64,000 nt of DNA, from positions 1 to 64,000 of IMG/VR virus record IMGVR_UViG_3300042914_002334; one strand, 5' to 3'. The number at the start of each line of letters is the position of its first letter. The stretch's first letter is position 1. Positions 20,685 through 40,800 of the stretch are shown in pieces. Source of the DNA: a virus. Below the pieces are notes generated by a model, which was not told where the DNA came from, ran no database searches, and saw only the letters and a list, made by a program, of their open reading frames with translations. The position numbers were made by a program, and so were the translations under genes.

Positions 20685-23600
20685 TTAAAATGAGCCCATA
20701 TCTAATGTGAACCCTGCTGGTTGATCGAAGGTTCCAAAATCTAATCCGCCAGCGGAAGAAATAGTAGCCCAACTTAACACTCCCGCGCCGTCCGTGGTTA
20801 AATATTTACTATTATTACCAGTCTGACTTGGCAATAAATTGTTAGCAGCGTCTGCTGCCGTTGTTGCACCGGTTCCGCCTTGTGCAATACTAAGTGCTGT
20901 TGTCAGTCCACTTATACTTGTAATGTCGCTATTGGCACCACTTGCCGCCGCACTTAGATTATTACGTGCAGTCGAGGCATCAGTTGCTCCAGTACCGCCG
21001 TTTGCTACTGGCAATGTTCCAGATACTTGTGTAGTCAAACTTACATCACTTAGTGTACCGCCTAATGTTAGATTTCCACTGGTAGTAACGGAACCAGTTA
21101 AAGTAATACCGTTTATGCTTCCTGTTCCTCCAACACTGGTAACAGTTCCATTGCTCGCTACATCCCAACTTAGTGTTCCACTACCGTCAGTCTTCAAGAA
21201 CTTTCCAGTGTGTGTTGCTTGATTTGGAAGTAAGTTAGTTATGGTGTTGACAGTTAAATCTACTGTTACAGAACCAGTACTGGCACTTACACTAACACTG
21301 TTGCTGCCGGCAGCGATTGAAGTAACGCCAGTGTTACTTATAGCGTTATTGATTATACTAATTCCAGTACCAGCACTATAAGTTCCAGGCCCACCAAACT
21401 GAGTGAATACTATGTTGCTGGTACCGATAGTAATGGTGCCAGTAGTGTTCATTACCCACTGTGTTCCACTCTGCGTACCCTCTTGAATATAGGTTGCATC
21501 TCCGGCTATTACTTCACCAGTGGCATCAAAATCACCCGCACGACTTAAAGTCCAAGGATTACTTGTTTGAGTTACGATATAGATGCCGTTTTGTTTGGCG
21601 TCAGTTTGATTTTTAACAAGAACGCGGTCGTTTACATTTAACGTTACGCCATCAATTGTTGAAAGTTCTTCAGAACCAATCAAAGTGGCTCCTACTCCAT
21701 TGCTACCATTGCCATAAGTCGCAGACAAATTAGATGTAGTAGTCACACGACATGCCAGATGTACATTTAATCCACTTGCAATATTGTCAACATACTGTTT
21801 TGTCGCAGCACCAAGTCCTGTACTTGGATCGGCATTCAATATTAGTGCGCCAGTCATTGTGTCGCCGGCAATATTTACTGCACCTAAATTACTACGTGCT
21901 CCAGCAGCATCAGTTGCTCCAGTTCCGCCGTTTGCTACTGCTAATGTTCCTGCAAGTGTAATTGTTCCACTACTGGTAATTGGTCCACCGCTTGTTGTTA
22001 GTCCCGTGGTTCCACCACTTAGTGCTACGCTTGTAACCGTGCCAGCGCCAGCAGAAATTGTGGTCCAGGTAGGAGCACTACTACTTCCATTACTCGTTAA
22101 TACTTGTCCGCTTGTTCCGTAATTTGCGCCACTTAAACCCCATGCTCCAGATGGTATTATTCGTAGTCGTTCAGTATTTACAATATTAAAATACAAACTA
22201 CCATTTCCACTTACGCCAGATCCACTTTTTAGTGTTACATCACCGCCAGTAGACGGAAGACCAACATCCGCAAGCGCCCCGGCCCCGCCTGTTATAGTTA
22301 CACTACCACCCTGTCTGTAGACACTGGCTCCGCCAGTTATATTGATTGATCCACCCTGCCCGGCTGCGGAGCCGGCGCCATTAGGGAAACTTCCTGCTGT
22401 TATACTAATACTTGAGTTTGAAGTTCCCGCTATTGTAAATGGACTTCCGGCTATTGTTAGTTGATTTGTTCCATTATACGTGAGACTGCTGCTACCAGTT
22501 AGTGATCCGGCGCTGTTATAAATTAGTTGCGTATTAGAACCTGCTGTTGTGGTTGGAGTCGCCCAAGTGGGAACACCACCGCTAACGGTTAATACTTGTC
22601 CAGTTGTTCCTATAGTGCGCTTAGTCAATGTGTTAGTAGCACTGGCATATAAAATATCTCCAGTAGCGTATGTAGTTTGACTGGTTCCGCCGTTTGCTAC
22701 TGCTAATGTTCCTGCAAGTGTAATTGTGCCGTTTGTGGTAATTGGTCCTCCACTTGTTGTTAGACCTGTAGTTCCTCCGCTAACTGCAATACTCGTTACG
22801 GTCCCAACTCCGCCAGCGGCCGCCCATTTGACTCCTTCTGTTGTAGTAGAATCGGCAGCAAGAACTTGTCCATCGGAACCAGCGGTCAATCTTACATTAT
22901 TAGTTCCGTTAAAGACGATAATGTCGCCTTTTGTTGTTAGCGGAGATAACCCATCAAAGGCTCCAGTTTTAGATGTAGCACCAGTTCCACCCTGTGCAAT
23001 ACTTAGTGCAGTGGTCAGACCACTTATACTTGTAATGTCGCTGTTAGCGCCGCTCTTTGCAGCACTTAGATTGCTACGTGCAGTGGCAGCATCAGTAGCA
23101 CCAGTTCCACCGTTTGCTACTGCTAATGTTCCAGCAAGAGTAATTGTTCCACTACTTGTGATTGGGCCGCCACTTGTAGTTAGTCCAGTTGTACCTCCAC
23201 TTAATGCTACACTGGTTACTGTTCCAAGTCCACTCAGTGTTTGCCAAGTAGGAGCACTACTGCTTCCACCACTCATCAACACTTGACCGTTTGTTCCATA
23301 GTTGGCGCCGCCAAGTCCCCACGCTCCAGCCGAAGTAATACGCAATCTTTCTGTTAGCGTTTCTCCAGTTGAGATAAAAACAGAACCTGATCTAAATGAC
23401 CCCGAACCGGCTTGTAGATATACATCGCCGCCGGCGCCATAATATGGTGCCCCTGGACCGCCCTTGATATAAACATTTCCTGGGTCTCCTCCTACTACCG
23501 AGGTATTTCCCGATTGTCCGGCAACTACGATAATATCAGAGCCTCCACTAGCAGTGTTGGCTCCGGGTGCACCAGCAATAGTAAATGTCCCTTCGCTTAA

Positions 23601-24040: not shown

Positions 24041-25747
24041 TCAAACATTTATACAGGTTCTAATGGCACGAATTGTGGTAACTGCATTTGTTGGAGTTAC
24101 TCTTAATTGAATTGTTCCATTAGTGTAATTTGCATTAAATGTTGCGAGTGCGGTGCCAGTGTTTATGTTAGCAAATTCAGTGTAATATGCCACGGAATCA
24201 TCATGTGTAATCAACATTTCACTTGTTTGATGAGAACTTCCACTACTTACTTGTATAACATACTTTACAGTTCTATAGGTCGTTCCACTAACACTATCTA
24301 TTACTTGATTGGCAGCATTTGTAGTAGTAATTAGAGTGATCGTTCCAATATTTCCTTGATTTACACTCAATACCGGAGCATAAAGTGTTCCTGTGTTTGG
24401 ATTATATTTTAGATTAGCGGTTGTGTTGAGTGCCTGTGCTGTAGTTGTATTGTTTTCAATAAACGGCAAATAAAAATTAGCATCAGTAGTTACTGCTCCG
24501 GTATTTTGAACCGTGTTTGCTGATCCAACTGATCCAGTGATATCGCCAGCACTAATTGTGCTGCTACTGATTAGTGCAGTTCCATTACTTTTTATGTATC
24601 CAGCACTGAAACTTGTTTGTCCAGTTCCGCCCTGTGCAATACTGAGTGCAGTTGTTAAACCGCTTAGACTTGTAATATCGCTATTGGCTCCACTCTTTGC
24701 TACACTTAAATTAGTTCTTGCATCGCTGGCAGTTGTTGCACCAGTGCCTCCACTCGCTATTGGTAGAGTTCCACTAAATGATACAGTAATACCTCCAGTT
24801 GAGGCAGAAACTCCTATATTTGTTCCACCAGTCAAACTCGTAACGCCAGTGTTATTTACAGTTGTTCCGTCGATTGAAATCGCGGTTCCTGCTACAAATG
24901 TTCCTGGACCTCCAAACTGTGACCAAACAATTGCAGAACTGCCAATTGTTATTGTTCCAGAAGTGGACATTACCCAGTGAGTTCCAGCAAGAGTTCCTTC
25001 TTGAATATAAACAGCATCACCTGCTACTATCTCGCCAGTTGGACTACCATCGAAGTCTGATGCACGGGTTAGAACCCAATTATCCACCGTAGTGGTAACT
25101 ACATATATACCATTTTGTGATGTAGTTGATTGTGATTTTACAAGAACTCTGTCATTGGTTGTTAAGGTAACACCGCTGATTTGTGGCAAACTTCCAGTTC
25201 CGGTTAGTGTTGCTCCAACACCGCTGGTTCCATTATCGTAAGTTGCAGTTAGACTTGAAGAAGTCGCAGTTCTACAAGCCAAATGTATGTTAAGTCCAGT
25301 TGCAACATTATCAACATATTGTTTTGTTGCTGCATGCAGTGAAGAACTTGGATTTGCACTAAGAGTAAGTGCTCCAGTCATAGTATCGCCTGCTTTATTT
25401 ACTGGGGTATAACCAACTATGTTTTGTAGAGCTTCTGCTTGTGTAGTTGCTCCAGTTCCGCCCTTGCTTATAGATACCGTGTTTAGTGATAAACTAATGC
25501 TTCCACTTGTGGTTACGGGACTACCAGATACAGTCAAGTCGCTACTGCTGATACCAACACTGGTAACAGTTCCGCTGCCTCCGCCACCCCCGCCAGCGGC
25601 ATTTAACTGTTGTATTGAGTTGTCTGAACGCTTGTAAAACAATTTACCATCAGCGTAATTTATGGCTAACTCGCCATAATCCAAATCTTGTGCGGTTGGA
25701 ACTTTGCCTTGCACAGACGATTTTTTAATCGTTATTTTATTTGCCAT
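24041..25747 (-). CDS. fibre protein with gp37-N-like N-terminus
   Basis: Start moved to ATG 25747 (AGGTG RBS); MANKITIKKSSVQGKVP..GELAINYADGKLFYK; RVLVKSQ domain; C-terminal VIDS..YRTVKYVIQ beta domain. Confidence 0.8.
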   Translation of the reverse strand: MANKITIKKSSVQGKVPTAQDLDYGELAINYADGKLFYKRSDNSIQQLNAAGGGGGGSGTVTSVGISSSDLTVSGSPVTTSGSISLSLNTVSISKGGTGATTQAEALQNIVGYTPVNKAGDTMTGALTLSANPSSSLHAATKQYVDNVATGLNIHLACRTATSSSLTATYDNGTSGVGATLTGTGSLPQISGVTLTTNDRVLVKSQSTTSQNGIYVVTTTVDNWVLTRASDFDGSPTGEIVAGDAVYIQEGTLAGTHWVMSTSGTITIGSSAIVWSQFGGPGTFVAGTAISIDGTTVNNTGVTSLTGGTNIGVSASTGGITVSFSGTLPIASGGTGATTASDARTNLSVAKSGANSDITSLSGLTTALSIAQGGTGQTSFSAGYIKSNGTALISSSTISAGDITGSVGSANTVQNTGAVTTDANFYLPFIENNTTTAQALNTTANLKYNPNTGTLYAPVLSVNQGNIGTITLITTTNAANQVIDSVSGTTYRTVKYVIQVSSGSSHQTSEMLITHDDSVAYYTEFANINTGTALATFNANYTNGTIQLRVTPTNAVTTIRAIRTCINV

Positions 25748-25811
25748 TGTGTCACCTAATAAGGATGTCAAAGAAATAATAATTTCTTTAGTATTTGTAT
25801 TTAGCAGAAAT

Positions 25812-25859: not shown

Positions 25860-26990
25860 TTAAAATCCAGGGTTTGTTGGCAAGGATCTAATAGAAGGAA
25901 TTGTTCCTATATTTGTACTGGTAGTATAAGCAAGAGACGCAGTGGTAGGACTCTTAGTTACAATCCACTCATTATTATTAGAAAATGGATTCATTGACGC
26001 CGCATTAAATCCTGAAATAGGAGAACCACTGTTTAGTCTAGTATTGGGTCCGTATCTTAACGGAGCATTTCCAAAAGAACTAGACGCACTTCTAACTGCC
26101 GCAATTAATCCCTTGCCTTGAATATTAGTAATAGTATTACCTTGAACAGTAAAACGAACTTTATTTGTGTTCCAAGAAGAATTCATTGTAACAAAAGAAT
26201 CTGTTTCATTTGAGATATTATTGATAACAATCAAATCATAAAATGCCGTGTTTCCAGCAGGATTAGAAAAGTTTTCATTAAATATAAAGTGACGAGATTG
26301 TCCCTGTTGTAACTGATTGTATGCTATCATCAAAACTCCAGCAGTAGGACTGACATTCACTACATTAAAATTAGTTGCATTTAAATTATTTCTAAAATAA
26401 TTTTGATAGACAAAAGATGTTCTTAGCATACTCGTGTCGATTAATGATTGTATTTTAACACCGTGATACCCTCCACTATTATTAGTAGAACCGTGCATTT
26501 TATAAAAATAACAGTTGTATATTGTAAATCCTACACTGTTAGTAGTTATTCCAGCGTGATCAAATTCAATATTACAATCTCGCACAACTACGTCTGGTCT
26601 AGTAATACTAATAGCACCCACTGACCCGCCGGCAGAAGTTTGACGTATAGTCAATGACCCAAGCACAATATTGGGCGCGTCACAACGAAATAAAGTTCCG
26701 GAGCCTTGAATAATAACAGAACTACTTTCTCCCCAAATTTGTACTGACTTAGTTATTGGTACACTCATAAAAATATTCGTGTATGTGCCATTTTTGATAA
26801 CGAGTTTATGTCCGTCTTTTACTCTACTATCTGATAGCGCCGCAGTTAAAGTTGTAAAATCAGATCCAGAACCCGATGGTCCAACTCTCCAATTTGTTTT
26901 TGGAGGTGGAGGTGGTGCTGGAGGAGGCGCAGCCATTTTGACGGTTCCAGTAGTTTTAACGTTTTGAACTGTGATACGTTTAGTTGCCAT
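25860..26990 (-). CDS. right-handed beta-helix (pectin lyase/pectinesterase-like) protein with poly-Pro linker
   Basis: VGPSGSGSDFTTLTAAL..LVIKNGTY..ITKSVQIWG followed by Asn-rich beta-helix repeats; AAPPPAPPPPP linker. Confidence 0.65.
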   Translation of the reverse strand: MATKRITVQNVKTTGTVKMAAPPPAPPPPPKTNWRVGPSGSGSDFTTLTAALSDSRVKDGHKLVIKNGTYTNIFMSVPITKSVQIWGESSSVIIQGSGTLFRCDAPNIVLGSLTIRQTSAGGSVGAISITRPDVVVRDCNIEFDHAGITTNSVGFTIYNCYFYKMHGSTNNSGGYHGVKIQSLIDTSMLRTSFVYQNYFRNNLNATNFNVVNVSPTAGVLMIAYNQLQQGQSRHFIFNENFSNPAGNTAFYDLIVINNISNETDSFVTMNSSWNTNKVRFTVQGNTITNIQGKGLIAAVRSASSSFGNAPLRYGPNTRLNSGSPISGFNAASMNPFSNNNEWIVTKSPTTASLAYTTSTNIGTIPSIRSLPTNPGF

Positions 26991-27016: not shown

Positions 27017-27047
27017 AAAAAAAGAGAGAAGATATTTCTCTCTTTTT
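27017..27047 (-). terminator. intrinsic terminator (AGAGAG family)
   Basis: AAAAAGAGAGAA-GATAT-TTCTCTCTTTTT. Confidence 0.75.
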
Positions 27048-27064
27048 ATTCAGATAATCAAATA

Positions 27065-28933
27065 TTAATACTCTCCGCCATCTATATCAGAGACGGCGGC
27101 AGTAATTGTTTGATCAACATAATACTTGTTTGTCAAATCATTATTAGCTAATCCAGTTGCATAGTCTGCGGCAACAGGACCAGCAATACTCATCTTGTTT
27201 GTTGTTTCTGAACCCTCTGGCGCTGCTAATGTCACTACAATGTCACCAGCCCCTGATTGTAAAGTAAGACCAGCAGTACCAATAATACTTAGTGTATCAC
27301 CGGGACCAGATTCTATCTGACTGGAACTACTGTTAGGTGCGTCAAATACAACATTATCAGTTTGAATTACCACACTTCCAGTTCCATTTGGAAGTAGTTT
27401 CAAGTCTGAATTTTCGCCTATGGTAGATATTGTTACGTCACCGTTAGCAGCAGTAGCAATCGTTGCTCCGCCAACAGTTAATGTATCAGTTGTTCCATTC
27501 CAAGCAAGTCCATCGACAGTAGAAACAGGATCAGTTCCATTTCCAAGTAGTATACTACCAGCAGTTAATGTTGATGCTCCAGTACCGCCTTTACTAACAG
27601 GTAGTGTTCCAGTTACTTTATCTGTTGTTAGATCAACAGCACCAGTAGCTAATTTAGCCGAAGTAATTGCTGCATCTTTAACTTGCAGTGCATCGCTACC
27701 ATTAACTTCAATAGTAGAATCATCTACTAAAACGTTAATTGTGTTGCCAGTATCCGATAATCCAGCACCCCATACATATGTTCCAGCACCACTAAATTGT
27801 ACCCACGTAACACTGTCAGTTCCAACACTAGATATAGTGGCCGTTTGTGTCCAACCCGTTGACTGCCAAGTTGATCCTTCTTTGACGTAAACTGCGGCAC
27901 CGTCAAATTCTGCTGGATCACTCATATCTTCTGCACGAACTGCTCCAGTTAATGAAACAATATAAATGCCATTTTGAGACGCGGTAGGTTGATTCTTAAC
28001 AAGAACACGATCACCAGATGCTAATGTTACACCGTCAACTGTATCTCCAGCCTTTAAGTCTGCCACTACCGTTATTGCCGCTGTAGTTGCGACTCTGACT
28101 GCATTTTTCCAAGACAGACCAGTTGTTAGTGCATCAACATATCCCTTAGTAACAGCGTGTGTAGAAGAAGACGGAGCACCAGTTATTGATACGCTATTGA
28201 ATGTGACATCAGCATCAGTTGCAACTGATTGTCCGATTGCAATTGCGCCGTCAGTAATCGTAACACCGGTTCCTTCTGTAAAAGCACCGCGAATATCAGC
28301 ATCTGTTACTTTAGTAAAGGTAAATATTCCAGTTGATGAACTGTAAGATATTGCTCCATAACCAGTTCCGCTATTAGCAGCACTTACGGCAGCCTGAGCG
28401 AGAGCGTTACTAAACCACTTGTTAGTTGCTCCTACTTCTTGAGAAATGTCATCTGTGTTTAGTGTTACACTGGAACCCAAATCAACTGACTTACCGTTAA
28501 TTGTAATACTCTTGTATGCCAACATAGTATTGGTAACAGTTCCAGTGTCGCCATTTCCAATTAAAGTTCCAGATGTTGATGGCAACGTGAAACTAGTTGT
28601 CCCGGCTGCTACTGGAGCTATTAAAGTAGCGGTTCCGCTTGTTGATCCAGAAAAAATGGCTGATGATAACCCGACGGCGCCAAGACCAGAAACATTCTTA
28701 GATGCGTCTATAATAACTGCTTTGCTCGCAGCAGCAGTACCAGCAGTTACATTGCTTAGTAGACCGGTGTAGTAGGCCCCGCCAGCTTCTACAATCTCTA
28801 CACTTGTTCCATTGGTGCTGCTACCAAAATATAACTTACCAGAACCAGATGAGTATGCTAACTCACCGAATGCTAAGCTTGTTGGTGCTGCTAAACCAGT
28901 AGAACGCTTGATTTTAATAGTTGATGATGACAC
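27065..28933 (-). CDS. fibre protein with N-terminal gp37-N-like domain and C-terminal DGGEY
   Basis: GTG start, AGGAG RBS; TIKIKRSTG..LAFGELAYSSGSGKLYFG; RVLVKNQ domain; ends DIDGGEY. Confidence 0.8.
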   Translation of the reverse strand: MSSSTIKIKRSTGLAAPTSLAFGELAYSSGSGKLYFGSSTNGTSVEIVEAGGAYYTGLLSNVTAGTAAASKAVIIDASKNVSGLGAVGLSSAIFSGSTSGTATLIAPVAAGTTSFTLPSTSGTLIGNGDTGTVTNTMLAYKSITINGKSVDLGSSVTLNTDDISQEVGATNKWFSNALAQAAVSAANSGTGYGAISYSSSTGIFTFTKVTDADIRGAFTEGTGVTITDGAIAIGQSVATDADVTFNSVSITGAPSSSTHAVTKGYVDALTTGLSWKNAVRVATTAAITVVADLKAGDTVDGVTLASGDRVLVKNQPTASQNGIYIVSLTGAVRAEDMSDPAEFDGAAVYVKEGSTWQSTGWTQTATISSVGTDSVTWVQFSGAGTYVWGAGLSDTGNTINVLVDDSTIEVNGSDALQVKDAAITSAKLATGAVDLTTDKVTGTLPVSKGGTGASTLTAGSILLGNGTDPVSTVDGLAWNGTTDTLTVGGATIATAANGDVTISTIGENSDLKLLPNGTGSVVIQTDNVVFDAPNSSSSQIESGPGDTLSIIGTAGLTLQSGAGDIVVTLAAPEGSETTNKMSIAGPVAADYATGLANNDLTNKYYVDQTITAAVSDIDGGEY

Positions 28934-28985
28934 TTTTTTCTCCTAAGTTAGGTATGGTATATATCCTAAAGTATTTATCCAAAAT

Positions 28986-29015
28986 AAAAAAAAGAGAGTG
29001 ATAACTCTCTTTTTT
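28986..29015 (-). terminator. intrinsic terminator (AGAGAG family)
   Basis: AAAAAAGAGAGT-GATA-ACTCTCTTTTTT. Confidence 0.75.
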
Positions 29016-29045
29016 ATTAAATCAAACTAAGTTGATTAGATTTGA

Positions 29046-30935
29046 TTAGTATGTGCCGCCGTCAAGGTCAACATCTACAACACCGTCAGTGACAGTGAAG
29101 TGATTTGGATTGAATGCAGCAACACCCTTTGTTCCAGTTGTTGTAGCAACAGCAACACTTACGGTTACTGTGTTAGCAGTAACAGCAGTAGAGATTGCTC
29201 CACTTCCAGAAATTGCTAGAGATTCGCCTAGAGCAACAGCGTCAGAACCAGAACCACCAGTTAGAGTGATTGAGCTATTAGCCAACTTAGCGTTGGTAAC
29301 AGCACCGTCAGCGATCTTTGCTGTTGTTACAGCGTCACTAGCGATCTTGACTTCTGTTACAGCAGCAGAATCTAGTTCTGGTGTTCCAACACCACCTGCC
29401 TTGATTGCTACATGGCCACCAGCAACAGAGAAGTTAGTTGAATAGAAACTTGCAATACCCTTGTTAGTATCACTTGCGTCTTCGCCGCTTACTGTGATTG
29501 TTACGTCGCCGTTAGAGATTGTAACAGCGGTATCAATGCCTTCTCCGCCAGCTACTGTTAGTGTCTTGCCGTTAGCAAATGTTTCGCTTCCTGTGTCACC
29601 GGCAGCAGTGAAACTTGTAGAGATGCTTGCAGTGCTTACTGCGGTTACTAGACCCTTAGCGTTAACAGTTACAACTGGAACTGCTGAAGATGAACCATAT
29701 GTTCCAACGTTTGTGTTGACTGTAGCTAGCTCTAGAGCTAGATCAACTGCCGCTGAACCGTCAAAACTTACAGCGGAAGCAGAAGCATCACCACTAGCAC
29801 TGAAGTTACGTGCTGTCTGTAGTGCGGTTGCGGTGTCAGCGTTACCTGTTAGAGCACCAGTAACATTGCCATAAACTCTACCGACGGTTAGATCCTTGTT
29901 TAGGTTCCAACGATCATCTGCACTTGAGTATGTTAATGTCGCTGGAGTTTCTGGACCTTCAACTGTTAGACCAGCACCATTAGCAGCAGCAGCAGTAGTA
30001 GCGCCCTTGGAAACAACGATGTTCTTGTCGGCAACTTCTAGAGTTGTAGAGTTAACTGTTGTTGTAGTACCATTTACAGTTAAATTGCCAGTTACAGTCA
30101 ATGCGCCTGTAACAGTAGCTGCACCAGAAATGCTAATACTTTCAGCAGTAATGTCATTAGAGTTTAGTGTGCCATCAACGGTAACGTTGTTGAACGTTAC
30201 GTTAGAAGTTGTACCAACTGCTTGACCAATAGCAACTTGACCGTCGGTGATAGTAACACCAGTTCCAGCACTGAAGTGTGCGCGAACTTCGCTTGCGCTT
30301 GGGCCAGTATAAGTAATTACACCAGTAGCAGCGTTGTATGACATGCTGCCATCGCCGCCTGCGTCAGTTACACTGATTGAGTCGCGAGCACGAGTTTGAG
30401 TGAAATATAGATTAGTAGTACCTTCAGCAATGTCGTCTGTGTCTAGATTGTTCAACAATTGTGAATCACTAAATGAGAACTTACCAGTAGCACTATCGTA
30501 TGTTAGTGCATCACTGCTTCCAGCAGCAACTCCTACTGAATCACGAGCACGAGTCTGTGTGAAGTATAGATTTGCATTTAGTCCAGTTCCCTCAGCTAGA
30601 GAGTTGGTGTTATGATTACTGATATCAGAAACTGTACCAGTTACATTACCAGTTAATGCACCAACGAAACTTGATGCGGTAACTGTTCCCAGGTTACCAA
30701 TATTTCTGCTTGCATCAACGATAAGAGCCTTGCTTGCGCTTGCTGTACCAGCAGTTACATCTAGCAAGTCTGCTAAATATGCGCCACCGATTAATGTGAC
30801 GGAAGAAGTTGTTCCATCTGTGCTGCTACCAAAATATAGCTTACCAGAACCAGATGAGTATGCTAACTCACCGAATGCTAAGCTTGCTGGCACTGAAGAG
30901 CCAGTAGAACGCTTGATTTTAATTGTATTTGCCAC
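29046..30935 (-). CDS. fibre protein with N-terminal gp37-N-like domain and C-terminal DGGTY
   Basis: GTG start, AGGAG RBS; NLYFTQTRARD x2, AVTxxKIA repeats; ends DLDGGTY. Confidence 0.8.
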   Translation of the reverse strand: MANTIKIKRSTGSSVPASLAFGELAYSSGSGKLYFGSSTDGTTSSVTLIGGAYLADLLDVTAGTASASKALIVDASRNIGNLGTVTASSFVGALTGNVTGTVSDISNHNTNSLAEGTGLNANLYFTQTRARDSVGVAAGSSDALTYDSATGKFSFSDSQLLNNLDTDDIAEGTTNLYFTQTRARDSISVTDAGGDGSMSYNAATGVITYTGPSASEVRAHFSAGTGVTITDGQVAIGQAVGTTSNVTFNNVTVDGTLNSNDITAESISISGAATVTGALTVTGNLTVNGTTTTVNSTTLEVADKNIVVSKGATTAAAANGAGLTVEGPETPATLTYSSADDRWNLNKDLTVGRVYGNVTGALTGNADTATALQTARNFSASGDASASAVSFDGSAAVDLALELATVNTNVGTYGSSSAVPVVTVNAKGLVTAVSTASISTSFTAAGDTGSETFANGKTLTVAGGEGIDTAVTISNGDVTITVSGEDASDTNKGIASFYSTNFSVAGGHVAIKAGGVGTPELDSAAVTEVKIASDAVTTAKIADGAVTNAKLANSSITLTGGSGSDAVALGESLAISGSGAISTAVTANTVTVSVAVATTTGTKGVAAFNPNHFTVTDGVVDVDLDGGTY

Positions 30936-31029
30936 TTTGTTTTTCTCCTAGGTTAAAGTGTTTTGTGATAAAAAATTTCTATTAGAAATTCTATTTTTAT
31001 TTATCACGATATATACTTTTTGAGTATTT

Positions 31030-31509
31030 TTATGTGTAATTTCCAGCATCTAAAGTAATACCAGTCAATGCTGTTCTTGCCACCCATTTTTGCGTGGCAA
31101 CATCATATTGCAATACTGATCCGTCTGTAATTGGTGCAGCGGCATCAACATTTCCAATATCCTCTAATTTATTTACAGTAGAATTCACTGTAAATAAAGT
31201 CCAGTTGTCTTCCGAATTAGGCATAGATCCAGTAGTCGTGTTTCGACTCTGACCATTTAACAAACTGTATTTGTAGTAACTGTCAGGATCGCGAGTCACG
31301 CTTCCAACGGTGTATCCATTTTTAAGATACACCAACATACCCTCGGTCAGTCGCTGACCAGTTATGTTTGTTAATCTGTCACCTGCATCACCGCTGATAC
31401 TTTGTAAAGTACCACGAACTTCAGTGTCCAATACTATTGGATGATCGCCAGTTGAACTCCAAGTTCCAGTCCACGTATTTCTTGTTAAGCCGTCGTAATT
31501 TGTGCTCAT
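31030..31509 (-). CDS. small fibre adaptor protein ending DAGNY
   Basis: ATGA-coupled to upstream gene; LEDIGNVD..DGSVLQYD..KWV fibre motif; ends TLDAGNYT. Confidence 0.7.
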   Translation of the reverse strand: MSTNYDGLTRNTWTGTWSSTGDHPIVLDTEVRGTLQSISGDAGDRLTNITGQRLTEGMLVYLKNGYTVGSVTRDPDSYYKYSLLNGQSRNTTTGSMPNSEDNWTLFTVNSTVNKLEDIGNVDAAAPITDGSVLQYDVATQKWVARTALTGITLDAGNYT

Positions 31510-34500
31510 GATATACTCACATATGTTGTTCCAGGCTGCAAGGTTATGCCATACAGCGTGTATTGTTCAGCAACATATCCTGCTGGAGGGGTCGTTGGCT
31601 GCAAACTAACAGTGTTTCCAGATGTCACGCTTACATCCGATAACAACGATGAGGTTGGACCAGTTTTGAACGATGTTGGCTGACTTGCACTTGAGCGAAT
31701 GGCGAACCAAAATGCTCTTGGTGTGCTCTCAGAATTGGTTACGTTACCAGCAAATACTTTTACCGCATTTCCAAGTGCAGTAACTCCAGCAACAAAACTT
31801 GTTACAGTAACAATGTTTTCGACAGTCGGAGGACTACTTGTAGCAGCCGTAAATAACCACAAGCTTGGGTATGTAAATGTAGCACTGGCACTTGCAGTAG
31901 TTGAACTGAGGTTTGCAGTATATGAAGTTCCAGTTACACTTGCTGGGCGAGTAAATGTAGTAGAAACACTTACCGTTCTTGTAGTTGCTGTGTTATTTTT
32001 ATGTATAGGATCAGTAAATGTAAATGTTCCGCTTGCGGTAGCACTACTTGTAGTTCCGCCAACTGCGGTCACGCTATTAGCATAATTTGATGTGCTTGAC
32101 ATTCCAGTTACAGTAACTGTATATGCTACAGAGTTATAACTTTGTAGGAATGTGTTGCCAGTTAGACTTCCAAGTGTTGCGCTCAGTGTTGGCGTCGCCC
32201 AAGTAACTGATATATTAGCAGTTGACGTAGTATATTCAGCGGTGGTAGTTCCATTGTAGAAATTGAATGCTATGGTTCCTGCTGCACTTCCGCCTGCTAT
32301 AGTAGTGCTTGTTGATCTGATAAATGAATCGGCATCAGTTGTAAATGTCTGTGTCCAATCTACAGTTCCCGCTGGAGTAGCAGATTGACTTCCTGCGCTA
32401 AATGTATTCAATGCACTTATTGAACCATTTGTAGCAGTTATACTTCTAACGCTTGAGATATATTGATCGGTAATGTCATCTGGGTTTACTGCATTTACAG
32501 CAAACGATGTAATTGGTTGATCCCAACTTGGAGATGCTGGTGAAATCGTAGCACTGAGAGTTGGGGTAAAGGTAGCAAGCGTTAAACGAAGTTTGTTGTT
32601 AAAGAATTCTGCTACGCGAACTGGAGAAGTAGTCCCATTCTCTTTGTATCCAGTAAGAGTTCTGTATGTTCCACTTGTAGTCCAAATAAGAGGACTATTA
32701 TCAGTTTGTGTGGCAACATCTACCCAACTTAGTGTTCCTGCGCCATCTGTTCCTAGAACTTGACCGCTGGTTCCACCGCCAATACTTATGTTATTGACTC
32801 CCCCGAACGATACTTTGTTGCTTGTTGCCGTTACATTAGTTACGCCGCCCGGAGTTCCATTATTGTTGTATTGTAGTTGTCCGTTTGTGCCACCAACTAA
32901 TGATAGTGACACGGGCCCCCACTTCTGCGTGGCAGAATCATATGCAAGAATCTGTTTATCTTCTGGTGTGCCAACTACATCCAATAGAGCACTAAGTAAA
33001 CCAGATGTTGCTACCGTAGCAAATGTTGGTTTATTTTGTATATTGTTCCAAGTCAAATCTTCGCTAATTACGTAATTAGCATCGTTAGTGAATGTGCTTA
33101 GTCCAGGTGCTGTTCCAGTTATATTTTCCCAAGTTACACTTGATACTGTTATGTAATTCGAATCATTGGTAAATGTGCTTAGTCCAGGTGCTGTTCCAGT
33201 TATATTTTCCCAAGTTACATCTGTTAGTTTTATGTATCCAGTGATTGTGTTGTCGAATATTCCAACAGATGGCGCAGTGCCGGTAAGATTTTCCCAAGTA
33301 ACTGCATCTGATTTAATGTATCCAGCGGTGTTAGTAAAATCACTTAAATCAGTTGGTTTGTTTGTTAAATCATTATAATTACGACTTACACTAATTACGC
33401 CTTCTGTCGTGACATCTATATTAGCGCCTATCTTTACACCACCACGAACGGTAGAAGAGGCAACGGGAACAGGAATACTACTGGTCCAAGAAACATTCAA
33501 TCCATCAGTAATTAAGAACTTGTTCGACTGTCCCTCTTGTGCTGGCAATAAGTTATTGATTGCGGCAGTTGCATTAGTTGCTCCGGTTCCGCCGCTTTCT
33601 ACTGGTAGTGTTCCAGTGAATGATACTGTTATACCTCCAGTTTGTCCGCTAATTGCAATATTACTTCCAGCAGTAAGCGAGGTTACACCAGTGTTGTTTA
33701 TCGTGTTGTCAACGATGCTTATTCCGGTGCCAGCAGTATATACTCCAGCAGCACCAAACTGCGACCACTCGATATCACTCGTTCCAATTTCTATAGTTCC
33801 AGAAGTAACCATTATCCACTGAGTGCTCTTTTGTGTCACTCCGTTTTGTATGAATGTGAAATCGCCAGCACTTACTTCGTTTGCAAAACTGTTGTCAAAA
33901 TCACTTGCTCTAATTAGAGTCCATCCGGATGTGATTGATGCGAGTGTGTATATGCCATTTTGTTTTTCGTCTGTTTGATTTTTTACTAAAATTCTCTGAT
34001 TTAGTTGTATTGTGACACCATCTATTTGTGGGAATGCACCAGAGCCAGTAAGGGTTGCACCTATTCCAGAACTACCGTTGTTATAAGTTGCACTTAAATT
34101 AGTAGTAGTGGCAGCAACGCAAGCCAAATGAACATTTAATCCAGTGGCTACATTGTCAACATATTCTTTTGTTGCGGCTTCGTATGCGTTGATTGGGTTT
34201 GCATATAGAACCAATGGGCCAGTCATTGTATCGCCGCCGATATTTACTGGAGTAAACCCAAGTCCGCCAGTAATTTGACTTGTATTGATGTCAACCCATA
34301 CCGGACTTCCATCTAATGATGCCAATACTTTTCCGTTCGCTGATCCTTGTGATGGCAGCAAATTATTGATTGCTGACGCTGCGCTGGTTGCGCCGGTGCC
34401 TCCGTTAAATATGCCAAGTGTTCCGCCTACTGTAAATGTTCCAGTGGTCGTTATTGGACCGCCACTAAATGTTAGTCCAGTTGCTCCCGGGTCGATACTT

Positions 34501-34679
34501 ACTGATTTTACTGTTCCGTAATCTGGTTTTGCATTAAAGAAGTCAATTGCACCCAAATCAGTTTTGTAAAATAACTTCCCATCAGCGTAGTTGATAGCAA
34601 CTTCACCAAATGACAAATCGGTTGTTAAAGGCTGTTTACCACTAACACCCGAACTTTTTAATACAATCGTTGTTGTCAT
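31506..34679 (-). CDS. fibre protein with gp37-N-like N-terminus (1057 aa)
   Basis: MTTTIVLKSSGVSGKQP..GEVAINYADGKLFYK; RILVKNQ domain; TWENxTGTAP repeats (81-bp DNA period near 33090-33220). Confidence 0.8.
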   Translation of the reverse strand: MTTTIVLKSSGVSGKQPLTTDLSFGEVAINYADGKLFYKTDLGAIDFFNAKPDYGTVKSVSIDPGATGLTFSGGPITTTGTFTVGGTLGIFNGGTGATSAASAINNLLPSQGSANGKVLASLDGSPVWVDINTSQITGGLGFTPVNIGGDTMTGPLVLYANPINAYEAATKEYVDNVATGLNVHLACVAATTTNLSATYNNGSSGIGATLTGSGAFPQIDGVTIQLNQRILVKNQTDEKQNGIYTLASITSGWTLIRASDFDNSFANEVSAGDFTFIQNGVTQKSTQWIMVTSGTIEIGTSDIEWSQFGAAGVYTAGTGISIVDNTINNTGVTSLTAGSNIAISGQTGGITVSFTGTLPVESGGTGATNATAAINNLLPAQEGQSNKFLITDGLNVSWTSSIPVPVASSTVRGGVKIGANIDVTTEGVISVSRNYNDLTNKPTDLSDFTNTAGYIKSDAVTWENLTGTAPSVGIFDNTITGYIKLTDVTWENITGTAPGLSTFTNDSNYITVSSVTWENITGTAPGLSTFTNDANYVISEDLTWNNIQNKPTFATVATSGLLSALLDVVGTPEDKQILAYDSATQKWGPVSLSLVGGTNGQLQYNNNGTPGGVTNVTATSNKVSFGGVNNISIGGGTSGQVLGTDGAGTLSWVDVATQTDNSPLIWTTSGTYRTLTGYKENGTTSPVRVAEFFNNKLRLTLATFTPTLSATISPASPSWDQPITSFAVNAVNPDDITDQYISSVRSITATNGSISALNTFSAGSQSATPAGTVDWTQTFTTDADSFIRSTSTTIAGGSAAGTIAFNFYNGTTTAEYTTSTANISVTWATPTLSATLGSLTGNTFLQSYNSVAYTVTVTGMSSTSNYANSVTAVGGTTSSATASGTFTFTDPIHKNNTATTRTVSVSTTFTRPASVTGTSYTANLSSTTASASATFTYPSLWLFTAATSSPPTVENIVTVTSFVAGVTALGNAVKVFAGNVTNSESTPRAFWFAIRSSASQPTSFKTGPTSSLLSDVSVTSGNTVSLQPTTPPAGYVAEQYTLYGITLQPGTTYVSIS

Positions 34680-34691
34680 TTATTTTTCCTT

Positions 34692-35666
34692 TTAACCAAA
34701 TGTTCCGCCATTTATCGAACTTACCAAGTTGTCAACATAATATTTATTGACCAAATCTGCATCTGCTAACCCATTAGAATACTGCACTGGTGTTGGACCG
34801 ACAACCGTAACTTTATTGATCGCATCGCTTGCTAATATCATAGCAGTATCTCCTGACTGTGATATTAGATTTAATCTCGAATTTGTTGCTTGTATGTTTA
34901 ATTCTTCGCCTGCATTTGTTTGAAGCGTTGAACTGCCGGTGCCGCTAACTACTATTTTTCCAGTTCCATTAGGTAACAACACCAAATCAGAATCTTCTGC
35001 CCCGGCAGATATCGTGGCATTATTTCCGTTTATTACTACTGGTCTTGTTCCGCCGGCAGTTAGTGTATTTTGTGCTGGATCAAAAGTAAGATTTGAAGAT
35101 TGTCCTACAAATTCTGCTCCAGTTCCATACATTAGTTGATTCTGAACTAATGAAGTTACGCCAGTTCCACCCCGACTGACCTGAACTGTTTCGAGATTGA
35201 TAGTTACTTCTTGATCTGTAACTGTAATTGATAGACCGCCAGTTGCTGTAAAAGTAAGTGCTTGTCCTATTTTTTCCCAAGCACTACCATTGTAAAATTC
35301 TGCAAAGGGTGGAGTAGTCTGATTGTTTATGCGAACCATTCCAACCTGAGCATCTTCTGGTCTGTGTGCGTTGTTTCCAACAGGAATACTAAGTGCTTTG
35401 TTTCCGTTAAACTTTAATACACCCGATTGAAGCAAACTTATTTCAGTTCCATCGATGTCAAAAACGCCATCTGCGCGACTTATAGAAATGTTTCCAGTTT
35501 CAGCAGTTATTGAACTGCCTACGATATTCGCATATTCTGTATCAGTTACTTGTCTTGCACTGAACGTAGAAGTAACGGAATCATAAAATATGAATCCGCC
35601 CTCTTTTCCAAATTGAATCTCATCCGATATGCCAGATAAGCCATAATTTTTTGTATAAGTGGTCAT
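34692..35666 (-). CDS. virion fibre/adaptor protein ending NGGTFG
   Basis: SIPVGNNAHRP..GMVRIN..EFYNGSAW motif; C-terminus homologous to 27065..28933; perfect TATAAATA upstream. Confidence 0.7.
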   Translation of the reverse strand: MTTYTKNYGLSGISDEIQFGKEGGFIFYDSVTSTFSARQVTDTEYANIVGSSITAETGNISISRADGVFDIDGTEISLLQSGVLKFNGNKALSIPVGNNAHRPEDAQVGMVRINNQTTPPFAEFYNGSAWEKIGQALTFTATGGLSITVTDQEVTINLETVQVSRGGTGVTSLVQNQLMYGTGAEFVGQSSNLTFDPAQNTLTAGGTRPVVINGNNATISAGAEDSDLVLLPNGTGKIVVSGTGSSTLQTNAGEELNIQATNSRLNLISQSGDTAMILASDAINKVTVVGPTPVQYSNGLADADLVNKYYVDNLVSSINGGTFG

Positions 35667-37805: not shown

Positions 37806-40800
37806 TTAAGTAAACATAACAAACTCAATAACTGCACTTGTCGCCCCAGTTCCGTTTGTCCCTGTTGCCGATTTTGTAAGACTAAGCTTCATAGTATGTA
37901 TTCCAGGATTAAACGCCGAGAATGCAGTTCCGGATCCGTTTGTTCCTATAGTTCCCGAAACCAATAGTTTCGTACTAGTGCCTTCAGAAAATGATCTAAT
38001 GTTATATGCGCCCCCCGATTTTTGTATTCCATAATACAGTATTGATAATGGGGGCGAGCTATATCCAGTAAAGGTAAATGTTACTTCGCAGGCGGTCGAG
38101 GCTACAGTGGTATAGACCGCAGTTCCTGTTCCAGCAAGAATAGTTGGTGTCCCAGCCAAATTACCACTTCCATCGTAATAAATTTCTACAGCAAATCTTG
38201 AGAGATTTCCAGCACCTCCGCCACTCCCTCCGCCACCGCTATACTGAGGAATGTTCAGTGTTCCGTTTGAGAATGTTGCAGGGCCGCTACTTCCAGTTGT
38301 TGTCAGTGTTATAGGAGCTTGATAGTCAGTTCCAGCCGAAGCAGCAGAAACTCCAGTTCCATTACCCTTTAATAGTCCATTTACAGAAGTTGTAAGTGTT
38401 ATTGCTGGAGTAGTTGTGCTATTGGAAACTGTTCCGCCAAATCCATTAGCAGATGTAACGCTTACAGCAGTAACTGTTCCACTGCCACCACCTCCAGTAG
38501 CATCGGTGCTGTTGACCCAAGCAGTTCCGTTGTATTTTAGAACTTGTCCGTTTGATGGAGAAGTAATGGTTACTGTTCCCAAATCAGCCAGATTTATTGT
38601 CGCGGAACCTCCAAGTGAGGCAGAGCGACCGTTAAATGTAACGCTGCTATTTGTCAGGGCGCTGTTAGATATGCCAGATAATGTTCCGCCAAGCGTTAGA
38701 CTTCCACTTGATGTCACGGTTCCAGTTAGTGTTAGTCCATTTACCGTTCCAGTTCCACCGACACTTGTAACGGTTCCGCTTCCACCATCACCAGTTGCAT
38801 CCGTGCTATTTACCCAATTACTTCCATTGTATTTTAGAACTTGTCCGTTTGTTGGAGAAGTGATGGTGACTTGATTCAGATTATTAAGACCAAAAGTCGT
38901 AGAACTTCCAAGAGCAATAGTAGTGCTGTTTATGGTAATGCTATTGTTCGTTAGTGCAGTGTTTGGTATGTTACTTAATGAACCACCCAATGTAATATTT
39001 CCGCTGCCAGTGACCGTTCCAGTTAGTGTTAGTCCATTTACCGTTCCAGTTCCACCGACACTTGTTACCGTGCCGCTTCCACCACCGCCAGTAGCACTCA
39101 GTGTGCCATTACTGTAAGAAAGTCCAGAACCAACAGTAACAGTTGTGAATCCGGAACCATTTCCTGCAACTATACCGTTTAAGGTGGTTGATACTGCAAT
39201 ATTTCCACTCGAAGTTACGGGTGAATTAGATACTGTGAAACCAGTTGGCATAGATAAACCAACACTGGTCACTGTTCCGCTACCGCCACCAGTTACTGTT
39301 CCCCACTCTAAAGCAGTTCCGGCAGAATTTACACGCAATACCTGATTCGCAGTTCCAATATTTGTTAAACCAGTTCCGCCGGAGGTTGTTGGAACGGTAG
39401 ACTGTGTGAACCCAAGTGTTACCGCTCCGTTAACGGTGGTTGCACTTACTGCGCCGCTTCCAGTTACACTTAAAACTCCCTTATTACTAATAGTAGTTCC
39501 ATTGACCTCTATTCCAGTCCCTCCAGTATAGGTTCCTGGGCCGCCAAACTGCGTGAACTCTACATCAGTAGTTCCAGTGTTTATTGCTCCAGTAGTCGTC
39601 ATTATCCATTGTGTGGTGGCAAGAGTTCCTTCTCCAACGAAGAAGGCATCGCCGGCGTTCATGTTTAAAGAATTATTAAAATCAATTGCTCTGGTCAACT
39701 CAAAAGGATTTGATGCAGTCATCAAATATATTCCATTTTGTGATTTAGTTGTTTGATTTTTAACTAAAACGCGATCACCGACATTTACTGTCAATCCACT
39801 AATAGTGTCCAGCGGGCCGGATCCAGTTAGTTTTGCTCCGACTCCATTTGTTCCATTAGTGTAGGTGCCACTAATATTTGATTGAGTTGCTACACGAGCG
39901 GCTTCTTTTATAAACAAGCCAGATACTAAATTATCTACATACTGTTTTGTTGCTGCTTGTAATGATGCGGTAGGATTTGCATTTAATGTTAGTGGGCCAG
40001 ACATAGTATCGCCCGTTTTAGCAACGCCGCCCAGATCAGCAAGAGTTATTGTTCTTGATCCACCAAGCGCAACAGCAGTTCCGTTTATAGTAATGCTGCT
40101 GTTTGCTAATGCACTGTTTAGTATGTTACTTAATGAACCACCGAGTGTCAAGTTACCACTTGTGGTAATCGTTCCCGTTAGAGTTAGTCCATTTACTGTT
40201 CCAGTTCCACCGACACTTGTAACTGTGCCGCTTCCACCACCGCCACCACCGCCAGTAGCACTCAGTGTGCCATTACTGTAAGAAAGTCCAGAACCAACAG
40301 TAACAGTTGTGAATCCAGTTCCATTTCCAGCAACTATGCCGTTTAATGAAGTTGATACTGCTAAAGTGCCGGCCGCAGTTATTGGTGATCCTGTCACGGT
40401 AAACCCAGTTGGCATACTTAGACCAACGCTGGTAACTGTTCCGCCTGTTGATCCTCCACCTCCTCCAGTGCTTGATATTTCTATTGTCTGAGTGTCAAGA
40501 CGATTGATGACCATATTGGCGCCGGCTTTCAACTTGACACTACTAATATGTGTTCCATCAGTGTCGCTACCAGTCAAACGAATTATTGCTCCGTCTGCTG
40601 TGCTTTGAGCTGTTGCAGTATAAACTACGCTCGCGTATGAACTTATTACACCCATTGGGTTTATAAGTATGCTGGTTCCGTCTACTCTTACTCCGCCGAG
40701 TGCAGAGTTTTGACCTGTGCCGGCTGTTGGCAGCGTATAAACAGTTGACGCAAATTCAAGTGCTGTTCCAGCAGAATTTACTTTTAGATATGAATTTGGT

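What the first reader, a model, noticed from the sequence alone, without database searches (positions are those of the whole stretch)
27065..30935. Two double-ended subunits (socket plus plug) that could polymerise head-to-tail
The 629-aa and 622-aa proteins each have both the N-terminal socket and the C-terminal DGGxY, with nearly identical sockets and no obvious receptor-binding tip. Each has its own promoter, 5' hairpin, strong AGGAG RBS and terminator. By eye the 629-aa gene favours GCT/GGT/AAC codons, suggesting high expression. Inference: these are repeatable extender units making a variable-length filament capped by socket-only adhesins.
Basis: inference. Interest (0 to 1): 0.75.

Follow-up and report, generated by a model that had tools for sequence, protein, structure and literature searches.

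The report
Double-ended tail-fibre connector segments
Two neighbouring genes of an uncultured marine jumbo phage encode tail-fibre middle pieces that carry both halves of the joint that links gp36 to gp37 in phage T4, so they most likely clip between other fibre proteins in a fixed order, although self-joining of the highly expressed 629-aa piece is not excluded.

Summary
The 629-aa and 622-aa proteins (minus strand) both start with a gp37-N/Mtd_N-like cap ("socket", 33/40 residues identical). Both stop right after DGGTY or DGGEY ("plug"). Each gene has an ATAAATA box, an AGGAG ribosome-binding site and a terminator. The 629-aa gene has the strongest codon bias after the major head gene.

The joint is the T4 gp36-to-gp37 type: gp36 homologues end in D-[FY]-G-x-[YF], and a profile of the sockets finds the gp37 N-terminus. 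This scan has reported the same joint in at least 48 other genomes.

New here:
- Double-ended proteins form a large unannotated family (more than 4,800 hits).
- They sit in a conserved three-gene unit, adaptor, then double-ended shaft, then socket-only tip. Cultured Limnohabitans phage DC31 has it.
- Only this jumbo-phage lineage has two such genes in tandem, as conserved, distinct paralogues.

My best reading (0.55) is a defined chain in gene order: 324, 1057, 159, 629, 622, 576. Open-ended self-polymerisation is neither shown nor excluded (0.2). In this lineage the adaptor's plug looks like the shafts' own plugs, and 629 appears to be over-expressed.

The parts
29046..30935 (-). 629-aa double-ended shaft, paralogue 1 (DE1): socket, repeat shaft, canonical C-terminal module KGVAAF..F.V.DG.V.V.LDGGTY
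   Evidence: Orthologues of 608, 560 and 631 aa in L001/L004/L005, L087 and L088.
27065..28933 (-). 622-aa double-ended shaft, paralogue 2 (DE2), a mosaic. Residues 1-257 resemble 629 (44% identity). Residues 247-455 are a knob domain. Residues 443-622 resemble the C-terminus of the 324-aa protein (37%).
30765..30932 (-). N-terminal socket of 629 (residues 2-57), a short-loop variant of the GELAYS class
   Evidence: Socket profiles: class A E = 3.8e-21, class B (gp37-N type) E = 4.3e-6. Pfam Mtd_N gives only 12.6 bits.
28760..28927 (-). N-terminal socket of 622 (residues 3-58)
   Evidence: class A E = 1.1e-20, class B E = 1.7e-6. 33/40 residues identical to 629, and 29 of those 33 use the same codon.
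29049..29063 (-). C-terminal plug DGGTY of 629, directly before the stop codon
   Evidence: Invariant D, G, G and Y in 70 relatives.
27068..27082 (-). C-terminal plug DGGEY of 622, directly before the stop codon
   Evidence: Homologues end DGGVY, DGGQY or DGGEY.
30998..31004 (-). ATAAATA late-promoter-like box upstream of the 629 gene
30965..31007 (-). Hairpin upstream of the 629 gene (-10.5 kcal/mol, z = -3.1). Its 5' arm overlaps the ATAAATA box.
30945..30949 (-). AGGAG ribosome-binding site of the 629 gene, 9 nt before the GTG start
28988..29015 (-). Intrinsic terminator after the 629 gene (12-bp stem, T-run)
28972..28978 (-). ATAAATA box upstream of the 622 gene
28940..28944 (-). AGGAG ribosome-binding site of the 622 gene, 6 nt before the GTG start
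27019..27047 (-). Terminator hairpin after the 622 gene, followed by a T-run
   Evidence: z = -3.0
31030..31509 (-). 159-aa adaptor with a plug only (ends LDAGNYT). Its C-terminal module is homologous to the 78-122-aa adaptors found upstream of double-ended genes elsewhere. Presumed donor to the 629 socket.
24041..25771 (-). 576-aa protein with a socket only (class B, gp37-N type). Presumed acceptor of the 622 plug, that is, the distal piece.
   Evidence: E = 1e-30
31506..34679 (-). 1057-aa protein with a class B socket only. Its stop overlaps the start of the 159-aa gene.
   Evidence: The pairing of a ..TLQPGxTYVxI[SG] end with a 159-like N-domain recurs in L046.
34692..35666 (-). 324-aa protein with a plug only (ends INGGTFG). 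Its C-terminal region is homologous to that of 622. Presumed donor to the 1057 socket.

Best explanation
The 629-aa and 622-aa proteins are middle segments of a multi-protein tail fibre. By analogy with other phage fibres they are presumably trimers. Each has two joint halves.
- An N-terminal cap domain of about 55 residues, homologous to the N-terminus of T4 gp37, receives the C-terminal tail of the preceding fibre protein.
- Its own last residues, D-G-G-x-Y with a free carboxyl end, are received by the cap of the next protein. T4 gp36 homologues end in the same kind of motif (D-[FY]-G-x-[YF]), and the gp36 trimer binds the N-terminal region of gp37.

The two genes are an old tandem duplication of the single 'shaft' gene of a widespread three-gene unit: adaptor, then double-ended shaft, then socket-only tip. 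They most likely sit in series in gene order, giving a defined heteromeric chain: 324, 1057, 159, 629, 622, 576. This would not be an open-ended polymer.

Shown: the motifs, their homology to gp37-N, the gene-order rule, the conservation of the paralogue pair, and the codon bias. Inferred: physical docking, trimer state, the exact order, and the absence of self-joining.
For: 1. T4 parallel. T4 gp36 ends ..QDFGYY-stop and gp37 starts ..[28 protein letters not shown]. Four divergent gp36 homologues end IDFGTY, LDYGTF, IDFGSF and QDFGYY, each followed by a gene that starts with the socket. [quoted passage not shown]

2. Homology. A profile of metagenomic class B sockets hits gp37 residues 5-57 (E = 1.7e-14), 622 (E = 1.7e-6) and 629 (E = 4.3e-6). 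hhalign of class A against class B gives 97.3% probability.

3. Gene-order rule in 43 non-redundant double-ended genes from 80 viral contigs.
- The upstream gene ends in a plug in 41 of 43 cases.
- The downstream gene starts with a class B socket in 37 of 39 cases.
- Examples are L002 and cultured Limnohabitans phage DC31 (92 aa ..ESGQY, then 589 aa, then 118 aa).

4. Plug type co-varies with socket type.
- E-x-G-Q-[FY] plugs go with long-loop GELAYS sockets.
- D-x-G-[TSIV]-[YF] plugs go with class B sockets.
- D-type adaptor plugs without Gln go with short-loop GELAYS sockets (window, L001, L088, L103).

5. The same terminal DGGxY follows two unrelated C-terminal modules. It is therefore a separate element.

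6. The pair, paralogue 1 followed by paralogue 2, is conserved in the window, L001/L004/L005, L087 and L088. In L087 the paralogue-1 socket has an insertion and the adaptor plug has an extra SGV, while paralogue 1's own plug is unchanged.

7. Fibre length varies in evolution through blocks inserted within the gene (438-700 aa) and through gene duplication. L088 has three sockets of this type in a row.
Against: No binding or structural evidence was obtained.

The 629 gene has codon usage like that of the major head gene: ENC rank 2 of 61 and CAI rank 1 of 77. The same excess is seen in its orthologues in L001 and L087; in L088 both shaft paralogues, and a third partial socket gene, score about equally high. 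A strictly equimolar chain does not explain this.

In this lineage the adaptor plugs (LDAGNYT, LDGGAF, IDGGSYSGV, LDGGIFT) cannot be told apart from the shafts' own plugs by their five terminal residues. In L104 both joints use DGGTY. No sequence barrier to self-joining is therefore visible.

Counting by class does not give one-to-one pairing. There is one adaptor plug for two class A sockets, and three DGGxY/NGGxF plugs for two class B sockets.

The L087 co-variation is a single case.
Confidence: 0.55

Rival explanations
1. The 629-aa protein, perhaps with 622, joins its own plug to its own socket. This gives a filament of variable length that starts on the 159-aa adaptor and is capped by socket-only proteins. 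The ratio of 629 to the caps would set the length.
For: Both ends are on one protein and the two sockets are nearly identical. In this lineage the adaptor plug that the socket must accept is D[GA]Gx[FY], the same pentapeptide type as DGGTY. At the position where the window has a class B socket gene (576), L088 has a class A short-loop socket gene after a DGGEY plug. The 629 gene is its own transcription unit, with a strong ribosome-binding site and the most head-gene-like codon usage in the genome. That bias is conserved in orthologues.
Against: In 43 loci, carrying both ends is simply the state of the middle piece of a three-part fibre, and those loci use distinct plug and socket classes at the two joints. 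The lineage keeps two, and in L088 three, distinct paralogues in fixed order, which would be unnecessary if one unit could repeat. In L087 the paralogue-1 socket changed together with the adaptor plug, not with its own plug. Codon bias measures expression, not copy number in the virion.
Confidence: 0.2
2. Parallel alternatives. 629 and 622 compete for the same adaptor plug (159), and each carries a class B socket protein (576 or 1057). The phage would then make two kinds of fibre rather than one long chain.
For: In the common unit, DGG[TS]Y plugs go to class B sockets, not to GELAYS sockets (37 of 39). 629 has that canonical C-terminal module. The C-terminal module of 622 matches that of the 324-aa protein, which is always followed by a class B socket gene. 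The two sockets are nearly identical, with signs of gene conversion (29 of 33 identical codons).
Against: In L088 the only sockets in sight for the plugs of the 631-aa and 601-aa proteins are of the 629 type. The fixed order, paralogue 1 then paralogue 2, in all lineage members fits a series, as does the T4 precedent where gene order equals assembly order. The contig is short, so class B sockets could lie elsewhere.
Confidence: 0.15
3. The end motifs are not intermolecular joints. The N-domain would anchor each protein separately to the baseplate, and the C-terminal DGGxY would be a folding, trimerisation or chaperone-recognition tag. The proteins would then be independent short fibres.
For: No structure of the joint exists. 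Neither gp36 nor the gp37 N-terminus has a match in the PDB copy searched. Mtd_N-type domains are common N-terminal anchors of fibres.
Against: Plug-ending genes are followed by socket-starting genes in 41 of 43 and 37 of 39 cases, across unrelated sipho- and myophage backgrounds. Plug type co-varies with the socket of the next gene. In T4, gp36 binds the N-terminal region of gp37. Tips of only 74-155 aa, consisting of little more than a socket, make no sense as baseplate-anchored fibres.
Confidence: 0.1

Closest known systems
Phage T4 long tail fibre, distal half: gp36 trimer joined to the N-terminal region of the gp37 trimer (PMC3004832; PMC5537660)
   Same: The donor protein ends in D-x-G-x-[YF]-stop. 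The acceptor starts with I.[FIL]K[RK]S...P....GE[LI]A.N...[LI][FY].K. The donor gene lies directly upstream of the acceptor gene. The socket profile finds gp37 residues 5-57 at E = 1.7e-14.
   Different: In T4 no protein carries both halves. gp36 has only the plug, and its N-terminus binds gp35. gp37 has only the socket and ends in the receptor-binding tip. Here both halves are on one polypeptide, twice in tandem. There is no overall sequence similarity to gp36 or gp37 outside the ends.
Unannotated three-gene fibre unit (adaptor, double-ended shaft, socket-only tip) of uncultured aquatic phages, and of cultured Limnohabitans phage DC31 (PQ492658.1)
   Same: 629 is a full-length member of the shaft family: more than 4,800 hits, and 83 of the best 120 carry both ends. 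The C-terminal module of the 159-aa protein matches the adaptors, and 576 matches the tips.
   Different: The common unit has one shaft gene. It uses E-x-G-Q-[FY] adaptor plugs, a long loop in the socket, and D-x-G-[TS]-Y plugs that go to class B sockets. The window's lineage has two shaft paralogues, a short-loop socket and D-type adaptor plugs.
Bordetella phage BPP-1 Mtd N-terminal domain (Pfam PF18454)
   Same: The motif layout is the same (hydrophobic-x-hydrophobic-K/R-R-G/S ... GE ... LY.G). The 834-aa neighbour is a true member (E = 2e-12). hhalign of the 629-type socket against that class gives 85% probability.
   Different: 629 scores 12.6 bits against a cut-off of 26.3, and 622 does not score at all. 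They are distant relatives at best.
Tail fibre of Legionella phage LME-1 (orf22, PDB 9EFK; PMC12407071)
   Same: The internal knob domain of 622, which has seven further copies in the window, matches orf22 residues 232-431 at E = 1.5e-27.
   Different: LME-1 is a T7-like podophage. Its fibre attaches directly to the adaptor and nozzle. The distal part that holds this domain was not modelled.

Membership tests
T4 gp36-to-gp37-type fibre joint | The acceptor has an N-terminal domain homologous to the N-terminus of T4 gp37 | tested here: met
   The class B socket profile hits gp37 residues 5-57 (E = 1.7e-14, 43.5 bits), 622 (E = 1.7e-6) and 629 (E = 4.3e-6). hhalign of class A against class B gives 97.3% probability.
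T4 gp36-to-gp37-type fibre joint | The donor ends in D-x-G-x-[YF] at the very C-terminus, as gp36 does | tested here: met
   gp36 homologues of T4, RB69, Marfa, a Tegunavirus and PM2 end DFGYY, DFGYY, DFGTY, DYGTF and DFGSF. 629 ends DGGTY and 622 ends DGGEY.
T4 gp36-to-gp37-type fibre joint | The donor gene lies directly upstream of the acceptor gene | tested here: met
   41 of 43 upstream genes end in a plug, and 37 of 39 downstream genes start with a socket. The window order is 159, 629, 622.
T4 gp36-to-gp37-type fibre joint | The donor C-terminus physically binds the acceptor N-domain | not testable with these tools
Neither gp36 nor the gp37 N-terminus has a match in the PDB copy.
Pfam Mtd_N (PF18454) | Score at or above the gathering cut-off of 26.3 bits | tested here: not met
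   629 N-terminus 12.6 bits (E = 0.13). 622 has no hit. The 834-aa neighbour scores 47-51 bits.
Double-ended shaft family of the three-gene unit | GELAYS-type socket, conserved core (..TTTVNSTT..ADDRWNLNK..), and a C-terminal KG.A.F..F.V..G.V...DGGxY | tested here: met
   629 aligns end to end with 69 relatives, with 42 invariant columns including D625, G626, G627 and Y629. 622 shares only the socket region and the final DGGxY.
Self-polymerising head-to-tail subunit (open-ended filament) | The subunit's own donor end fits its own acceptor end | not testable with these tools
   At the level of the five terminal residues there is no visible barrier in this lineage. Docking could not be modelled.
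Self-polymerising head-to-tail subunit (open-ended filament) | The subunit is present in molar excess over its partners | tested here: inconclusive
   Codon bias of 629 is rank 1-2 in the genome. Its orthologues top their clusters in L001 and L087; in L088 both shaft paralogues and a third partial socket gene score about equally high. This is a proxy for expression, not virion stoichiometry.

The most novel reading that the evidence does not exclude
In this jumbo-phage lineage the specificity that keeps the two joints of the common three-part fibre apart has been lost. The highly expressed 629-aa shaft would then join to itself (and to 622) several times per fibre. The result would be a tail fibre whose length is set by expression ratios and capped by socket-only tips, that is, a phage fibre built by open-ended polymerisation.
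Probability: 0.2. Interest if true: 0.8.

Novelty: new variant of a known kind. Interest (0 to 1): 0.45.

Why it matters
Tail fibres decide which host a phage can infect, yet how multi-protein fibres are put together is known in detail for very few phages. A short, readable end-to-start code would let fibre architecture be read from uncultured phage genomes. Here that code is a plug pentapeptide plus a 55-residue cap, shared with T4 gp36/gp37. The double-ended shaft family is large (thousands of proteins), unannotated and present in a cultured phage, so the code is directly testable. If the 629-aa protein really repeats, it would be a fibre whose length is set by how much of the subunit is made, which I have not seen described for phage tail fibres.

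Tried and rejected
- AlphaFold2 monomer of 629 with a 70-sequence alignment: mean pLDDT 60, C-terminal third below 50. Foldseek against the PDB gave no match with E <= 0.001.
- AlphaFold2 of the 622 knob domain with 8 paralogous copies: pLDDT 36, unusable.
- Sequence searches of both proteins against the PDB: only chance hits.
- Profile of 29 sockets against the PDB: only summed weak repeats in designed propellers, which are spurious.
- T4 gp36 has no match in the PDB copy. The first 200 residues of gp37 matched only an internal repeat of a gp34-type chain (residues 98-166), not the N-terminal socket.
- Pfam: no family for either protein.
- Full-text search for DGGTY, DGGSY, IDGGTY or DGGTF: nothing about phages.
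- The search for related loci with 622: no further members of the lineage.
- P0123 (1060 aa) considered as a possible fusion of the two paralogues: it is a mosaic with modules of both in a different order, so it says nothing about the order.
- Sigma-70 promoter scan: not above chance.
- The idea that the window is a T4-like cyanophage (first megablast hits) was dropped. Only short modules are shared.


Full report
**What is there.** The window is part of a 141-kb contig of an uncultured marine phage. A block of fibre genes lies on the minus strand from about 18.2 to 41.5 kb. The two ORFs of the finding are 29046-30935 (629 aa) and 27065-28933 (622 aa).

Both start with xxTIKIKRSTG..P.SLAFGELAYSSGSGKLYFGSST. 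The two share 33 of 40 residues here, or 40 of 57 over the longer stretch. They end LDGGTY-stop and IDGGEY-stop.

In the whole genome, 6 of 330 ORFs of at least 60 aa end in [DN]xGx[YFIW] followed by 0-2 further residues. Five of the 6 lie in this block: the 1104-, 622-, 629-, 159- and 324-aa proteins. The N-terminal motif occurs in five proteins: 834, 576, 622, 629 and 1057 aa.

**Gene signals.**
- Both genes use GTG starts, with AGGAG 9 and 6 nt upstream.
- Both have an ATAAATA box (T4 late-promoter type) 37-63 nt upstream. The total count of this heptamer in the window equals chance. However, 19 of 21 copies are on the coding strand, and at least nine lie 18-63 nt before an ORF start.
- Both are followed by a stem-loop with a T-run.
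- The 5' hairpin is significant only for 629 (z = -3.1). For 622, z = +0.6.

**Codon usage.**
- On a GCT/GGT/AAC/TAC/TTC score the 629 gene ranks 2 of 94.
- Its ENC is 38.5, rank 2 of 61.
- It ranks 1 of 77 on a CAI built from the top-ranked gene. That gene is the major head protein (phrog_138, E = 1.6e-97).
- Ala and Gly codon choice differ from the rest of the genome at p = 7e-10 and p = 3e-9.
- The orthologues of 629 top their clusters in L001 (0.69) and L087 (0.74). In L088 the orthologue (0.56), its paralogue (0.56) and a third, partial socket gene (0.55) score about equally high. The bias therefore looks conserved rather than a sign of recent import.
- The 622 gene is ordinary (ENC 46.5, rank 34).

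**What the ends are.** T4 gp36 ends ..VIKDSVQDFGYY-stop. T4 gp37 begins [41 protein letters not shown]. Homologues of gp36 in RB69, Klebsiella phage Marfa, a Tegunavirus and Pectobacterium phage PM2 (37-74% identity) end DFGYY, DFGTY, DYGTF and DFGSF. In each, the next gene starts with the same N-terminal motif.

A profile built only from metagenomic 'class B' sockets finds gp37 residues 5-57 at E = 1.7e-14. It finds the N-termini of 622 and 629 at about 1e-6. The 629-type (class A) and class B alignments match at 97.3% hhalign probability.

[quoted passage not shown] The distal rod is (gp36)3-(gp37)3 (bioRxiv 10.64898/2026.03.06.709160). So the 'plug and socket' is the gp36/gp37 joint. Its atomic structure is not in the PDB copy, so docking of the terminal peptide into the cap remains an inference.

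This scan has already reported the same joint on other DNA: 53 notes in at least 48 genomes. I reached the T4 link after seeing 'gp37-N' in the title of a note on this genome, and then tested it myself.

**The double-ended family.** A search with 629 gave more than 4,800 hits. Of the best 120, 83 carry both the socket and a terminal DGGxY. D625, G626, G627 and Y629 are invariant in 70 aligned members.

The same DGGxY follows two unrelated C-terminal modules, so it is an element of its own:
- KG.A.F..F.V..G.V.., as in 629.
- ..NDL.NKYYVD.., as in 622 and the 324-aa protein.

In 80 viral contigs I found 43 non-redundant double-ended genes.
- The gene just upstream encodes a small protein that ends in a plug in 41 of 43 cases. 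Most of these are 78-122 aa; a few are longer (140 and 210 aa). The plug is E-x-G-Q-[FY], with E in 35 of 41 and Q in 38 of 41.
- The double-ended protein ends D-x-G-[TSIV]-[YF], with D in 43 of 43 and Y in 41 of 43.
- The gene just downstream starts with a class B (gp37-type) socket in 37 of 39 cases.

The backgrounds are unrelated. L002 has a lambda-like tail, with a tape measure protein and a GpJ-like protein. Cultured Limnohabitans phage DC31 has the same unit, all annotated as hypothetical: 92 aa ..ESGQY, then 589 aa ..DGGTY, then 118 aa starting ..IILKKSS..GELAVNYTDGKLFYKK.

Carrying both ends is therefore the normal state of the middle piece of a three-part fibre. It does not by itself indicate a polymer.

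**What is special here.** Only the window's lineage has two double-ended genes in tandem. That lineage comprises the window, L001/L004/L005 (153-341-kb contigs), L087 (356 kb) and L088.
- They are distinct, conserved paralogues in fixed order. Paralogue 1 is the 629 type and always ends DGGTY. Paralogue 2 is the 622 type and ends DGG[EVQ]Y.
- 622 is a mosaic. Residues 1-257 resemble 629 (44%). Residues 247-455 are a knob domain that also occurs in the 576-, 1057-, 1104-, 1223- and 3518-aa proteins. Residues 443-622 resemble the C-terminus of the 324-aa protein (37%).
- The knob matches the tail fibre of Legionella phage LME-1 (PDB 9EFK orf22, residues 232-431, E = 1.5e-27) and a capsid decoration protein (9NX3). 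It lies mid-fibre and is not a tip.

**Series, parallel or polymer?**

For a defined series in gene order:
- T4 sets the precedent, since genes 34-37 lie in assembly order.
- The paralogue order is fixed in all lineage members.
- L088 has an adaptor, a 631-aa and a 601-aa protein, and then a third socket of the 629 type, with no class B socket in sight.
- In L087 the socket of paralogue 1 has an insertion and the adaptor plug has an extra SGV. Paralogue 1's own plug is unchanged.
- L046 supports a further joint type, which links 1057 to 159. There a socket-B protein ending TLQPGITYVDIG is followed by a protein that starts like the 159-aa protein.
- Together these give the chain 324, 1057, 159, 629, 622, 576.

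For self-joining:
- In this lineage the socket has lost the 12-residue loop of the common class.
- The adaptor plugs are LDAGNYT, LDGGAF, IDGGSYSGV and LDGGIFT. They have D instead of E and no Gln, so they are the same type as the shafts' own plugs.
- L103 shows the same pairing: a DAGAF plug with a short-loop socket.
- In L104 both joints use DGGTY. The five terminal residues therefore do not carry the specificity. Either neighbouring surfaces do, or the joints are promiscuous.
- The head-gene-like codon usage of 629 is not explained by an equimolar chain.

For parallel use: the C-terminal modules of both 629 and 622 are of kinds that elsewhere feed class B sockets.

Monomer models were poor.

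**Verdict.** The head-to-tail joint is well supported and is of a known kind. The double-ended tandem pair is a new variant of it. Open-ended polymerisation remains an untested minority reading.

Noticed in passing
window 31506-31509; L046:12142-18667: A second type of joint. The 1057-aa protein ends ..TLQPGTTYVSIS and its stop overlaps the start of the 159-aa gene. In the unrelated locus L046, a 777-aa socket-B protein ending ..TLQPGITYVDIG is followed by a 1395-aa protein whose N-terminus matches that of the 159-aa protein.
   Followed up: partly
window 27578-28228, 24737-25405, 7764-8516, 4410-5081, 5169-5921, 39342-40124, 21225-21866, 33564-34232 (all minus strand): A knob domain of about 210 aa occurs eight times in six fibre proteins. 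It has no Pfam family. It matches the LME-1 tail fibre (PDB 9EFK orf22, E = 1.5e-27) and a capsid decoration protein (9NX3, E = 5e-6).
   Followed up: partly
window 30816-30932 versus 28811-28927: The socket-coding regions of 629 and 622 use the identical codon at 29 of 33 identical residues. Between orthologues in different genomes the figure is 21-22 of 35. This hints at gene conversion between the two 5' ends in this genome.
   Followed up: partly
window 25860-26990 (minus strand): A 376-aa gene with a proline-rich N-terminal linker sits between 622 and 576. It has its own ATAAATA box and terminator and has neither plug nor socket. L088 has a homologue (367 aa), whereas L001 has a PKD/Laminin_G protein at that place. 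Its codon bias is the lowest in the block.
   Followed up: no
window 25747 versus 25771 (minus strand): The listed TTG start of the 576-aa ORF is probably wrong. The socket motif begins right after an ATG eight codons downstream (MANKITIKKSS..).
   Followed up: no
L093 (Limnohabitans phage DC31, PQ492658.1) 3209-5679: A cultured phage carries the canonical unit of adaptor, double-ended shaft and tip. All three genes are annotated as hypothetical proteins.
   Followed up: partly
L104:5195-5887: A 230-aa protein combines a class B socket with an adaptor-type C-terminus ending DGGTY. This is another kind of double-ended connector. The next protein also ends DGGTY.
   Followed up: no
L006, L016 and 18 other loci, third gene of the unit: In 20 loci the ORF after the shaft gene runs 75 codons upstream of its socket motif. 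This is either a mis-called start or an N-terminal extension in front of the socket.
   Followed up: no
window 20685-20750 (minus strand): The 1104-aa protein ends with two plug copies (..LDFGTF......LDMGSF). These are of the D-[FM]-G type, like T4 gp36. The next gene is the only true Pfam Mtd_N protein (834 aa). The same pairing of a DMGAF plug with that socket type occurs in L068 and L079.
   Followed up: partly
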